Source: a virus. From it: 64,000 nucleotides of DNA. The position numbers and the translations under genes are program-made. The stretch covers positions 34,087 through 98,086 of the IMG/VR virus record IMGVR_UViG_3300025883_000003; one strand, written 5' to 3'. Of the stretch, positions 46,272 to 47,369 are shown piece after piece. Numbering within the stretch: position 1 is the stretch's first letter; the number at the start of each line of letters is the position of its first letter. A model generated the notes under the pieces. It was not told the origin of the DNA and did no database searches. It was given only the letters and a program-made list of their open reading frames with translations.

Positions 46272-47369
46272 ATGACGGCCCATTTTGCTCGCAAACTGCT
46301 ACCTGTGCCCGCCCCGAAGGAATCGAAGGAAGAGCAGGCGCGGATTCAAGCCGTTCGCGAGCTGCGGTTGCTCGATACGCCCGCGCATGAACGCTTCGAC
46401 CGATTCACGCGGATTGCCAAGAGCGCCCTAGGAACCGAGATCGCGCTCGTCAGTCTGATCGACTCAGACCGGCAGTGGTTCAAGAGCGCCCAAGGGATCG
46501 GGGTGCTCGAAACACCGCGGGAGATTTCGTTTTGCGGGCACGCCATCTTGGGCGATGAGATTTTCGTGGTGCCCGACGCGAGCAAGGATGAACGCTTCTC
46601 GAATAACCCTTTGGTCATGGGCGGCCCGAAGATCCGGTTCTACGCCGGGAGCCCGCTGCGCGGTCCTACGGGGCACCGTGTGGGAACGCTTTGCGTGATC
46701 GACTCCAAGCCGCGCCAGCTCAACTTTGCCGAGCTGGCCATTCTTCGCGACTTGGCATCGATGGTCGAAGGCGAGTTGCGTATCGATCAGTTGACGATCT
46801 CGGAACGCACGCTTCGGAAGTCACTGAACGATGCGGAGATCAAAGCGACGCTCGATCCGCTCACGCACATGTGGAACCGCGGCGCGATCCTTGAGTTGCT
46901 TGAAATTGAAAGGCAGCATGCCGAAGCGTCGGGCAAGCGCTTGGGTGTGGCGATGGTCGATATCGACCATTTCAAGGCCGTCAATGATGAGCACGGGCAC
47001 GTCGTCGGAGACCGGGTGATCGCAGAAGTGGCGGCCCGCATGCGCCACGTGATTCGCGATCAAGACTTTGTAGGCCGCTACGGGGGCGAAGAGTTCCTGA
47101 TCGTGCTCGAAGCGGCCAACGCGGTGGAGCTTCGCGTCGTTGTCGAGCGCATTCGGCGTGCCATTGCCGTCAGCCCCATTCAACACAATGGGCAGAGTCA
47201 TACGGTGACGATCAGTGCGGGGCTCTACATCGCCCCGGTGACCATCGATTGCTCGAATGAATCGATGGTCGAGGCCGCCGATAAGGCGCTCTACAAGGCC
47301 AAGCGAAAAGGCCGCAATTGCACGGTCGTGTCGGAGCGCGGAGATTCGATGTTCCCCCCGCCCGGCTAG
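46272..47369 (+). CDS. GAF-GGDEF diguanylate cyclase
   Basis: GAF (ERFDRFTRIAK, ETPREISFCGHAI, IRFYAGSPL, GTLCVIDSKPR); GGDEF: DPLTHMWNR, DIDHFKAVNDEHGHVVGD, RDQD I-site, GRYGGEEF, TISAG, ADKALYKAK. Confidence 0.95.
   Translation: MTAHFARKLLPVPAPKESKEEQARIQAVRELRLLDTPAHERFDRFTRIAKSALGTEIALVSLIDSDRQWFKSAQGIGVLETPREISFCGHAILGDEIFVVPDASKDERFSNNPLVMGGPKIRFYAGSPLRGPTGHRVGTLCVIDSKPRQLNFAELAILRDLASMVEGELRIDQLTISERTLRKSLNDAEIKATLDPLTHMWNRGAILELLEIERQHAEASGKRLGVAMVDIDHFKAVNDEHGHVVGDRVIAEVAARMRHVIRDQDFVGRYGGEEFLIVLEAANAVELRVVVERIRRAIAVSPIQHNGQSHTVTISAGLYIAPVTIDCSNESMVEAADKALYKAKRKGRNCTVVSERGDSMFPPPG

What the first reader, a model, noticed from the sequence alone, without database searches (positions are those of the whole stretch)
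46272..47369. Phage-encoded, apparently active GAF-GGDEF diguanylate cyclase
All catalytic elements (DxDxFKxVND, GGEEF) and the RxxD feedback site are present behind a complete GAF sensor, in the middle of phage early genes. c-di-GMP controls motility, type IV pili, exopolysaccharide and development in many bacteria. Phage proteins that modulate host cyclases are known, but a phage carrying its own sensor-cyclase is unusual. It could immobilise or aggregate the host, remove pili receptors (superinfection exclusion), or divert GTP from nucleotide-based defence.
Basis: partly seen in the sequence, partly recalled or inferred. Interest (0 to 1): 0.72.

Follow-up and report, generated by a model that had tools for sequence, protein, structure and literature searches.

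The report
Phage-carried GAF-GGDEF c-di-GMP synthase gene
A complete 108-kb uncultivated marine or sediment phage carries an intact copy of a common bacterial sensor enzyme that makes the messenger c-di-GMP. The gene is a one-gene insertion missing from the phage's closest relatives. It is a credible but untested host-behaviour gene of a kind already noted in viromes.

Summary
Window 46272-47369 (+) encodes a 365-aa GAF + GGDEF protein with every catalytic motif and an RxxD site.

- **Family.** It is a full-length homologue (E 1.5e-86, 44% identity) of P. aeruginosa Dcsbis/PA2771, a biochemically proven, highly active diguanylate cyclase.
- **Phage setting.** The genome is an IMG/VR virus record of 107,829 bp that CheckV rates complete. 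It has TerL, PolA, DnaB and SbcCD, and no integrase, EAL or PilZ.
- **Not a chimera.** The identical locus occurs on at least four listed contigs from different samples. Codon usage and GC match the phage.
- **Accessory gene.** Four relatives with TerL 87-96% identical have the same flanking genes with the cyclase cleanly absent. None of 15 IMG/VR relatives has a GGDEF domain.
- **Other phage copies.** The nearest homologue (60%) is on another phage-like contig. A relative with TerL 80% identical carries an unrelated PAS-GGDEF at a different site. Sensor cyclases therefore entered this group at least twice.

Virus-encoded cyclases have been reported in viromes (PMC7785012, PMC11295528), in PHROGs and in IMG/VR. 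This scan has flagged similar genes on other DNA (e1-5344507, e1-5360883).

Verdict: a new member of a known kind. Enzyme activity is likely. The host, the GAF ligand and the benefit to the phage are unknown.

The parts
46272..47369 (+). GAF-GGDEF diguanylate cyclase gene, 365 aa (protein P0001)
   Evidence: ORF. Pfam GAF + GGDEF. Full-length match to PDB 4ZMU Dcsbis, E 1.5e-86. AF2 model pLDDT 93.8.
46386..46775 (+). GAF sensor domain (residues 39-168)
   Evidence: PF01590, E 1.7e-16. The phage copy carries every residue that is invariant in the 60-member alignment, of which it is a member, including R44, R47, W69, K71, C88, D106, R108, Y124 and C141. No NKFDE cNMP motif.
46662..46679 (+). 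GAF beta5-beta6 loop (residues 131-136, GPTGHR). It is equivalent to the Dcsbis 'protecting loop' 120-125, which blocks the I-site.
   Evidence: Gap-free alignment to 4ZMU. Numbering offset derived from Arg251/Asp254 in PMC4937426. Same length; sequence differs (ASNGQA in Dcsbis).
46725..46850 (+). Long linker helix between GAF and GGDEF (residues 152-193)
   Evidence: DSSP on the AF2 model, H152-193.
46845..47318 (+). GGDEF catalytic domain (residues 192-349)
   Evidence: PF00990, E 6.7e-43. Foldseek versus 4ZMM: TM 0.93, rmsd 1.6 A.
46959..46988 (+). DIDHFKAVND (230-239): metal-binding Asp and guanine-binding Asn238
   Evidence: Motif positions. D230, D232, K235, N238 and D239 are invariant in 60 homologues. 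Roles come from PleD structures (established knowledge).
47010..47012 (+). Asp247 in GHVVGD, the base-specificity residue. Asp predicts GTP/c-di-GMP; Hypr cGAMP enzymes have Ser here.
   Evidence: Invariant in the family. Interpretation from the literature on Hypr GGDEFs (own knowledge).
47055..47066 (+). RxxD I-site (RDQD, residues 262-265)
   Evidence: Five residues upstream of GGEEF. Aligns with Dcsbis RPED, Arg251/Asp254.
47082..47096 (+). GGEEF active-site motif (271-275)
   Evidence: G271, G272, E274 and F275 are invariant in the family.
47301..47315 (+). K344...R348 (KRKGR): phosphate-binding Lys/Arg of the GGDEF fold
   Evidence: K344 and G347 invariant, R348 in at least 90%.
46266..46271 (+). 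Left insertion junction GCTTGC, between the stop of the upstream gene (TGA, 46263-46265) and the cyclase ATG
   Evidence: GCTTG recurs at 47372-47376.
47370..47403 (+). Right insertion junction CCGC, then the conserved intergenic element TTGACC-N18-TAGGGT. In relatives this element directly follows the stop of the upstream gene.
   Evidence: Homology to L174 resumes at 47374.
45600..46265 (+). Upstream gene, 221 aa (weak DUF4347 match). Conserved in relatives that lack the cyclase.
47387..47737 (+). Downstream gene, 108-116 aa, unknown function. Conserved in relatives that lack the cyclase.
   Evidence: RNA-library contigs 47187-47423 and 47413-47593 bridge the cyclase 3' end into it.
50127..51725 (-). 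Large terminase, the phage hallmark gene 2.8 kb from the cyclase. Used to find relatives.
   Evidence: phrog_38, 1e-57. 256 relatives, many on 100-118 kb contigs.

Best explanation
The gene encodes an intact, catalytically competent diguanylate cyclase of the Dcsbis/PA2771 type.

**How the enzyme works (inferred from homologues).** An N-terminal GAF domain dimerises the protein and probably binds an unidentified small molecule. A long helix links it to a C-terminal GGDEF domain, which condenses two GTP into c-di-GMP.

**How the phage holds it.** It is an accessory, moron-like gene of a virulent-looking 108-kb tailed phage. The gene sits exactly between the stop codon of a conserved 221-aa gene and the promoter-like element of the next conserved gene. 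It has no promoter of its own, so it is probably transcribed as the tail of the upstream operon.

**Likely effect.** When expressed in an infected cell it should raise c-di-GMP and push the host towards the high-c-di-GMP state. That state typically means less flagellar motility and more adhesion and exopolysaccharide. Overexpressed PA2771 suppresses swimming.

**Shown here:** gene integrity, family membership, phage location, the indel relative to close relatives, and a second independent sensor-cyclase in a related phage.

**Inferred:** enzyme activity and product, dimerisation, expression during infection, and any benefit to the phage.
For: **Domains and motifs.** GAF + GGDEF are present. 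All catalytic motifs are intact: DIDHFK, N238, D247, GGEEF, K344/R348 and RDQD.

**Family membership.** The protein matches the crystallised, assayed cyclase Dcsbis over its full length, E 1.5e-86. Foldseek puts 4ZMU first at 44% identity. The GGDEF domain superposes on 4ZMM at TM 0.93, rmsd 1.6 A. PMC4937426 shows that Dcsbis has high cyclase activity, forms a GAF-mediated dimer, and suppresses swimming when overexpressed.

**Family conservation.** All 120 top homologues keep GG[DE]EF. 119 keep GHxxGD and 114 keep RxxD.

**Phage genome.** TerL, PolA, DnaB and SbcCD are present. CheckV rates the record 100% complete. It has no tyrosine or serine integrase.

**Not a chimera.**
- Four listed contigs from different samples carry the same 21-kb (or 9.9-kb) locus with 0-5 differences. 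Eight contigs in all carry the protein.
- Single contigs span the locus at 27-30x depth.
- Codon usage correlates at r = 0.86 with the rest of the genome (rank 53 of 63). GC is 60.7% against 61.2%.

**Accessory status.** In L173, L174, L186 and L187 (TerL 94, 96, 87 and 87%) the flanking DNA is homologous at the same place with a much shorter gap where the cyclase would be. In L173 and L174 the flanking genes are adjacent. None of the 15 IMG/VR relatives has a GGDEF domain.

**Maintained in phages.**
- The sister protein P0002 (60% identity, SH-aLRT 99) is on L006, a contig with several PHROG matches. It keeps RDKD and GGEEF.
- L171 (TerL 80%) has an unrelated PAS_3-GGDEF, 33% identical in the GGDEF domain, with RVVD and GGDEF intact, at another locus.

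**Weak hint of expression.** Two contigs from one metatranscriptome run are identical to 47187-47593.
Against: - No assay exists for this protein, and its product is inferred from one residue.
- The host is unknown. The nearest cellular homologues are only 52-58% identical and are spread over Myxococcota, Planctomycetota, Acidobacteriota and Pseudomonadota. The c-di-GMP outputs of the host therefore cannot be named.
- The gene is absent from the closest relatives and rare in the family: 2 carriers, the window's phage and L171, among the 21 phages examined. It is dispensable for the phage.
- No Shine-Dalgarno sequence or own promoter is evident.
- The phage has no PilZ, no EAL and no c-di-GMP riboswitch. 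No phage-side receiver of the signal was found.
- The RNA evidence is two low-depth contigs in one run and could be DNA carry-over.
- The GAF ligand is unknown even for Dcsbis.
Confidence: 0.7

Rival explanations
1. Neutral passenger. The cyclase is a recently inserted hitch-hiker that gives the phage no benefit and will be lost. Its motifs are intact only because the insertion is young.
For: It is absent at the syntenic site in relatives with TerL 87-96% identical. None of the 15 IMG/VR relatives carries a GGDEF domain. The gene has no own promoter or SD. The populations sampled are nearly clonal, so selection cannot be read from polymorphism.
Against: Codon usage and GC are fully phage-like, so the gene is not a fresh capture from a cell. 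The nearest homologue is on another phage-like contig at 60% identity and keeps all motifs, which implies long residence in phages under purifying selection. A related phage acquired a different sensor-GGDEF independently.
Confidence: 0.15
2. Counter-defence or nucleotide-pool tool. The enzyme is used to drain GTP or to interfere with cyclic-nucleotide immune signalling, rather than to reprogramme host behaviour.
For: The variable region near TerL in a relative (L193) holds an Acb2/Tad1-hairpin-type gene, a family of cyclic-nucleotide sponges. Such regions can therefore carry anti-defence cargo. Dcsbis-type enzymes are unusually active with weak product inhibition (PMC4937426).
Against: No defence system is known to me that c-di-GMP neutralises. 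Bacterial STING-type CBASS effectors are activated by c-di-GMP (own knowledge), which would harm the phage. A regulated GAF sensor is an odd design for a simple GTP sink. No direct evidence was obtained.
Confidence: 0.07
3. Not a c-di-GMP synthase. The protein is either a non-catalytic c-di-GMP/GTP receptor or a Hypr-type enzyme that makes cGAMP or c-di-AMP.
For: Many GGDEF proteins are degenerate receptors. The product was not measured.
Against: Every catalytic residue is present: D230, D232, K235, N238, GGEEF and K344/R348. The specificity residue is Asp247, not Ser. The closest solved relative was shown to make c-di-GMP.
Confidence: 0.06
4. Assembly chimera or host contamination. A bacterial gene was mis-joined into a phage contig.
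For: Nothing beyond the gene's cellular ancestry.
Against: The identical gene with identical flanks appears in JGI, ENA and Logan assemblies of several samples and studies. No junction or loose end sits at the gene borders in the spanning contigs. Composition matches the phage. The borders are a clean one-gene indel relative to sister phages.
Confidence: 0.02

Closest known systems
Dcsbis (PA2771) of Pseudomonas aeruginosa PAO1, PDB 4ZMU/4ZMM (Chen et al. 2016, PMC4937426)
   Same: The GAF-GGDEF architecture and length are the same (341 vs 365 aa). Identity is 44% over the full length (E 1.5e-86). The RxxD-N5-GGEEF spacing is the same. The GAF lacks the NKFDE cNMP motif. The beta5-beta6 loop has the same length. 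The secondary I-site Arg (Dcsbis R282, query R293) is kept.
   Different: - This copy is encoded by a phage, not a chromosome.
- The protecting-loop sequence differs (GPTGHR vs ASNGQA).
- Dcsbis Arg271 corresponds to Ala282 here.
- The phage protein has an N-terminal extension of about 10 residues.
- The AF2 monomer model shows a straight linker helix rather than the compact crystal arrangement (whole-chain TM 0.44-0.47).
- Activity is untested.
Virus-encoded diguanylate cyclases reported from viromes: the Mu-like virus of the Cariaco Basin (PMC7785012) and mucR-like genes in sargassum-associated viruses (PMC11295528)
   Same: They are GGDEF genes on viral contigs from marine samples. They are read as auxiliary genes that affect biofilm and signalling. 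None was tested biochemically in the passages read.
   Different: Those are Mu-like, temperate or unclassified fragments. This one lies inside a complete 108-kb genome with no integrase. It has a defined indel relative to sister phages and a solved close homologue.
GGDEF genes in deposited phage records, e.g. Klebsiella phage ST16-OXA48phi5.4 and Acetobacter phage phiAX1
   Same: Annotated as diguanylate cyclase or GGDEF proteins in phage records.
   Different: They lie at the very end of the record, next to an integrase or host-like metabolic genes. That suggests prophage-edge cargo or host flank. They are only 28-32% identical and lack this GAF domain.
phrog_14602 (PHROGs v4, 'unknown function')
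   Same: Full-length profile match, E 3.8e-98 over residues 16-349. The same GAF-GGDEF family is therefore already catalogued among phage and prophage proteins.
   Different: It is unannotated. Its members could not be inspected here. No INPHARED record holds a close full-length copy.
Phage proteins that modulate host cyclases, e.g. the YfiN-binding peptides of Pseudomonas phages (PMC8085984)
   Same: They target the same host pathway, c-di-GMP signalling.
   Different: Those are small inhibitors or binders of a host enzyme. Here the phage brings the enzyme itself.

Membership tests
Active GGDEF diguanylate cyclases (PF00990) | GG[DE]EF active-site motif | tested here: met
   GGEEF at 271-275.
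Active GGDEF diguanylate cyclases (PF00990) | Metal-binding and substrate-binding residues: DxD...K, Asn and Asp for guanine, C-terminal Lys/Arg for phosphates | tested here: met
   D230, D232, K235, N238, D247, K344 and R348 are present and invariant or nearly invariant in 60 homologues.
Active GGDEF diguanylate cyclases (PF00990) | GGDEF fold | tested here: met
   PF00990 E 6.7e-43 over profile positions 1-160 of 161. The AF2 model superposes on 4ZMM at TM 0.93, rmsd 1.6 A.
Active GGDEF diguanylate cyclases (PF00990) | Synthesis of c-di-GMP from 2 GTP by a dimer | not testable with these tools
   Needs an enzyme assay or LC-MS. Dimerisation is inferred from the Dcsbis GAF dimer.
Dcsbis/PA2771-type GAF-GGDEF cyclases | Single N-terminal GAF + C-terminal GGDEF, about 340-365 aa, homologous over the full length | tested here: met
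   phmmer versus 4ZMU: query 14-352 to chain 10-343, E 1.5e-86. 7732 family members at E <= 1e-10, all with the same Pfam pair in the top 120.
Dcsbis/PA2771-type GAF-GGDEF cyclases | GAF without the NKFDE cyclic-nucleotide motif (ligand unknown) | tested here: met
   No N[KR]x[DE][DEQ] string in the protein. The paper reports that Dcsbis binds neither cAMP nor cGMP.
Dcsbis/PA2771-type GAF-GGDEF cyclases | RxxD I-site blocked by the GAF beta5-beta6 'protecting loop' of the partner subunit | tested here: inconclusive
   RxxD is present and the loop has the same length, but a different sequence (GPTGHR vs ASNGQA). No dimer model was made.
Hypr GGDEF (cGAMP-producing) | Ser instead of Asp at the PleD-D344-equivalent position | tested here: not met
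   Asp247 in GHVVGD. The residue rule is from the literature (own knowledge).
Phage accessory ('moron'/auxiliary) gene | Lies inside a bona fide, contiguous phage genome | tested here: met
   Hallmark genes. CheckV 100%. Independent assemblies.
Phage accessory ('moron'/auxiliary) gene | Present or absent as a discrete unit between conserved genes of related phages | tested here: met
   One-gene indel versus L173 and L174, confirmed at the DNA level in L186 and L187. The borders lie at the stop of the upstream gene and at TTGACC.
Phage accessory ('moron'/auxiliary) gene | Own promoter and terminator (classical moron) | tested here: not met
   Only 6 nt separate the gene from the upstream stop codon. 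No promoter-like or terminator-like site flanks it.
Lysogenic-conversion gene of a temperate phage | Integrase or recombinase in the genome | tested here: not met
   PF00589 and PF00239 are absent from the complete record. Other lysogeny modes were not excluded.

The most novel reading that the evidence does not exclude
Virulent phages of this uncultivated 100-118 kb marine and sediment group have repeatedly recruited sensor-coupled cyclases: GAF-GGDEF here and on L006, and PAS-GGDEF in L171. On this reading the phage reads a host or environmental small-molecule cue during infection. It then conditionally switches the infected cell into a sessile, non-motile state with an altered surface. The gain would be progeny released among dense hosts, or exclusion of rival phages. 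That would be signal-dependent behavioural manipulation of the host by a lytic phage.
Probability: 0.3. Interest if true: 0.7.

Novelty: new member of a known kind. Interest (0 to 1): 0.48.

Why it matters
c-di-GMP is the main switch between motile and sessile life in bacteria. If a lytic phage really makes it on demand, phages would steer host behaviour and particle attachment in marine and sediment communities. They might also alter their own receptors.

This locus is a clean test case:
- a complete phage genome;
- natural sister phages that differ by this one gene;
- a close homologue with a crystal structure and an assay;
- a second, unrelated sensor-cyclase in a related phage.

The enzyme class and the existence of viral GGDEF genes are already known. 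The value lies in a well-defined experimental system, not in a new principle.

Tried and rejected
- **Close phage relatives in INPHARED.** Megablast found none. TerL and PolA reach only 25-32% identity there.
- **Host identification.**
  - Cluster names for TerL relatives were all blank.
  - The nearest cellular cyclases are spread over several phyla at 52-58% identity or less.
  - The single scan of genome contigs was used on the cyclase, so no CRISPR-spacer search was possible. The host stays unknown.
- **Phage-side c-di-GMP receivers.** No EAL, no PilZ and no Rfam c-di-GMP riboswitch anywhere in the 108-kb genome. Other receptor types were not searched.
- **Promoter and terminator scan of 44400-48000.** No sigma-70 consensus hit, and the terminator count was at shuffle level.
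- **Polymorphism-based selection test.** The four assemblies differ at 0-5 positions in 21 kb, none in the cyclase, so the test is uninformative.
- **dN/dS against the 60% identical sister.** Not attempted, because synonymous sites are saturated.
- **Read laying.** Only Logan contigs were available, not raw reads, so read-pair support at the junctions could not be shown.
- **Jumbo-phage and megaphage papers.** They hold only reference-list or table mentions of GGDEF.
- **L011.** A GAF-GGDEF on a 447-kb IMG/VR contig was not followed up. It may be cellular.
- **Homodimer prediction.** No job was sent, because a pass would only reflect likeness to 4ZMU.
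Full report
**1.

Window 46272-47369 (+) is an uninterrupted 365-codon ORF. Pfam finds a GAF domain at residues 39-168 (E 1.7e-16) and a GGDEF domain at 192-349 (E 6.7e-43, profile positions 1-160 of 161).

- D230-I-D232-HFKAVND239;
- GHVVGD at 242-247;
- RDQD at 262-265, exactly five residues before GGEEF at 271-275;
- YKAKRKGRN at 341-349.

Among 60 aligned homologues D230, D232, K235, N238, D239, D247, R269, G271, G272, E274, F275 and K344 are invariant.

**2. The gene is in a phage genome.**

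The window is part of a single 107,829-bp contig with 61% GC. It is an IMG/VR virus record that CheckV rates 100% complete.

- Its hallmark genes are a large terminase at 50127-51725 (-), a family-A DNA polymerase, a DnaB-like helicase and an SbcCD fusion.
- Neither a tyrosine nor a serine recombinase is found. The phage therefore looks virulent, although other lysogeny modes are not excluded.
- It has no close relative among 50,697 deposited phage records.
- Its terminase has 256 metagenomic relatives, many on contigs of 100-118 kb. It belongs to a sizeable uncultivated phage group.
- The sequencing runs that hold the locus, or in most cases only a small unlaid share of it, are labelled marine, sediment or estuary metagenomes.

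**3. It is not a chimera.**

- Eight contigs carry exactly this protein. The four that were listed come from three JGI samples and one ENA sample and show the same neighbours. Three of them have no differences from the window and one has five, over 21 kb (9.9 kb for one contig).
- Logan contigs of two runs span 43500-50200 in one piece at 27-30x depth. A third study holds identical fragments.
- The gene's GC is 60.7% against 61.2% for the genome. Its codon usage correlates at r = 0.86 with the rest of the genome, rank 53 of 63 genes.
- Only contigs were available, not raw reads, so read-pair support at the borders was not shown.

**4. What the protein is.**

It aligns over its whole length (residues 14-352) with PDB 4ZMU, Dcsbis/PA2771 of P. 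aeruginosa, at E 1.5e-86. An AlphaFold2 model built on 60 homologues has mean pLDDT 93.8. Foldseek ranks 4ZMU first at 44% identity. The GGDEF domain superposes on 4ZMM at TM 0.93 and rmsd 1.6 A.

The whole-chain TM is only 0.44-0.47. The model shows one straight helix from 152 to 193 between the domains, whereas the crystal form is compact.

What is known about Dcsbis (PMC4937426):
- It converts GTP to c-di-GMP faster than WspR or SadC.
- It needs its GAF domain for full activity, and it dimerises through that domain.
- It binds neither cAMP nor cGMP, and it has a large pocket for an unknown ligand.
- It suppresses swimming when overexpressed.
- Its RxxD site is occupied by a GAF loop (residues 120-125) of the partner subunit, so product inhibition is weak.

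How the phage protein compares:
- Paper numbering equals query numbering minus 11. On that basis the loop corresponds to 131-136 (GPTGHR against ASNGQA). The length is the same and the sequence differs.
- R293 matches the secondary I-site residue Arg282. Arg271 is Ala282 here.
- Asp247 occupies the base-discriminating position, where cGAMP-making Hypr GGDEFs have Ser (own knowledge). This predicts c-di-GMP as the product.
- The GAF domain has no NKFDE motif.
- The phage copy carries every residue that is invariant across the 60-member alignment, in which it is included. These include R44, R47, W69, K71, C88, D106, R108, Y124 and C141. This suggests that ligand sensing has been kept.

**5. Where it came from.**

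The family is very large: 7,732 hits at E <= 1e-10, all GAF+GGDEF proteins of about 345 aa among the top 120. It is spread over Planctomycetota, Myxococcota, Acidobacteriota and Pseudomonadota.

In a maximum-likelihood tree of the 120 best hits:
- The phage protein is sister (SH-aLRT 99) to P0002, which is 60% identical.
- The next clade (support 98) holds P0003, P0006 (from an Anaeromyxobacteraceae MAG), P0007 and P0008.

P0002 lies on L006, a 17-kb contig of about 45 small genes. Several of those genes match PHROG families: phosphoesterase 3e-43, phrog_3230 2e-49, phrog_17260 4e-39, plus an exonuclease and an ATPase. The contig shares two further proteins with this phage. P0003, P0004 and P0012 lie in ordinary cellular contexts.

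The two phage-borne copies therefore form a clade and have diverged to 60% identity while keeping every motif. The donor lineage cannot be named.

**6. It is an accessory gene with clean borders.**

In L173, L174, L186 and L187 (terminase 94, 96, 87 and 87% identical) the DNA on both sides of the cyclase is homologous, and the gap where the cyclase would lie is much shorter. In L173 and L174, which were examined at gene level, the homologues of the 221-aa upstream gene and the roughly 116-aa downstream gene lie about 60 bp apart.

| | Sequence at the site |
|---|---|
| Relatives | stop-TTGACCGTAG... |
| Window | TGA-GCTTGC-ATG[cyclase]TAG-CCGC-TTGACCGTAG... |

GCTTG occurs on both sides, at 46266-46270 and 47372-47376. 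This 5-bp repeat could be chance.

The element TTGACC-N18-TAGGGT at 47374-47403 looks like a promoter for the downstream gene. The cyclase itself has no promoter, no SD and no terminator of its own. It is probably transcribed by read-through from the upstream genes.

None of the 15 IMG/VR relatives has any GGDEF domain. Three of these are complete genomes. Three further relatives, L172, L192 and L193, have none within 10 kb of the terminase.

**7. A second, independent sensor-cyclase in the group.**

L171 is a 108.8-kb phage whose terminase is 80% identical. It carries a 329-aa PAS_3-GGDEF protein that ends 19 nt before the terminase gene, on the other side of the terminase from the site used here. 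Its GGDEF domain is only 33% identical to the window's and has RVVD and GGDEF intact.

Two related phages therefore acquired different sensor-cyclases at different sites. This argues that the function is repeatedly useful rather than accidental. However, only the window's phage and L171 carry a cyclase among the 21 phages examined.

**8. Expression.**

One metatranscriptome run from another study yields two contigs identical to 47187-47423 and 47413-47593. They run from the cyclase 3' end into the next gene. This is a weak hint only, because the depth is low and DNA carry-over is possible.

**9. Most likely mechanism.**

In the infected cell, a GAF-dimerised cyclase gated by an unknown ligand makes c-di-GMP from GTP. 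This adds to the host pool and drives the outputs of high c-di-GMP, typically less motility and more adhesion and exopolysaccharide.

The phage has no EAL, no PilZ and no c-di-GMP riboswitch. The receivers are therefore presumably host proteins.

Candidate benefits are keeping the cell on a particle among hosts, masking or removing motility-organelle receptors, or changing the cell-cycle state. These are inferences, and the host is unknown.

I put about 0.8 on enzyme activity and about 0.5 on host-behaviour manipulation as the selected function.

**10. Comparison with what is known, and novelty.**

Viral diguanylate cyclases have been reported before:
- a Mu-like virus in the Cariaco Basin, in a paper that also cites Pacific Ocean viromes (PMC7785012);
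- mucR-like genes in sargassum-associated viruses (PMC11295528);
- PHROGs already has a full-length family, phrog_14602 (E 3.8e-98), and eight other GGDEF families, all labelled 'unknown function';
- IMG/VR holds at least 149 contigs with relatives, many from isolate genomes and so probably prophages;
- deposited phage records with GGDEF genes have them at the record edge, next to an integrase or host-like genes.

My literature searches found no biochemical or infection study of a phage-encoded cyclase. The library is incomplete, so this is not proof that none exists.

Earlier notes of this scan flagged similar genes on other DNA: e1-5344507, a GAF-GGDEF with RPED in a phage-like genome, and e1-5360883, a cyanophage cyclase.

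The finding is therefore a new member of a known kind. Its distinguishing points are:
- a complete, integrase-free genome;
- a natural one-gene presence/absence contrast with sister phages;
- a solved and assayed close homologue;
- convergent acquisition within the phage group.

Interest is moderate, at 0.48.

Noticed in passing
L171:8993-9982 (+), 19 nt upstream of TerL at L171:10001-11599: A related 108.8-kb phage (TerL 80% identical) carries an unrelated PAS_3-GGDEF protein of 329 aa with RVVD and GGDEF intact. It sits at a different locus from the window's cyclase.
   Followed up: partly
L193:4801-5172: A relative with TerL 67% identical carries a gene with a PF24729 Acb2/Tad1-hairpin match, a family of cyclic-nucleotide sponges. 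It lies in the variable small-ORF block upstream of TerL. This block seems to collect cargo that acts on host signalling or defence.
   Followed up: no
window 45600-46265 (+): The conserved 221-aa gene upstream of the cyclase has a weak DUF4347 match (E 0.011). It also has a His...Cys pair (FAHGW ... YCCSTA) reminiscent of a cysteine-peptidase dyad. It is kept in relatives that lack the cyclase.
   Followed up: partly
window 46533-46535, 46539-46541 and 46692-46694 (C88, H90, C141 of the GAF domain): Two cysteines are invariant and a histidine nearly invariant in the GAF domain across 60 family members from several phyla. They may form a ligand, metal or redox site that the Dcsbis paper does not discuss.
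   Followed up: no
window 47374-47403: The conserved intergenic element TTGACC-N18-TAGGGT precedes the downstream gene. It is retained in relatives and resembles the 18-bp-spacer promoter cassettes that another note on this genome describes.
   Followed up: partly
TerL relatives P0124, P0125, P0192, P0217, P0236: Several terminase homologues of this phage group are 680-928 aa long and carry intein or homing-endonuclease Pfam domains (PF14890, PF14528). Inteins have therefore invaded TerL in some members.
   Followed up: no
L011:9974-11014 (IMGVR_UViG_3300022744_000001, 447,761 bp): A 346-aa GAF-GGDEF protein, 39% identical to the window's, lies on a 448-kb contig classed as viral. It could be a jumbo phage or a misclassified cellular contig.
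   Followed up: no
window 46725-46850 (residues 152-193): The AF2 model predicts one continuous 42-residue helix linking GAF and GGDEF, unlike the compact crystal form of 4ZMU (whole-chain TM 0.44-0.47 despite domain-level agreement). The model may represent the active, parallel-dimer state.
   Followed up: no
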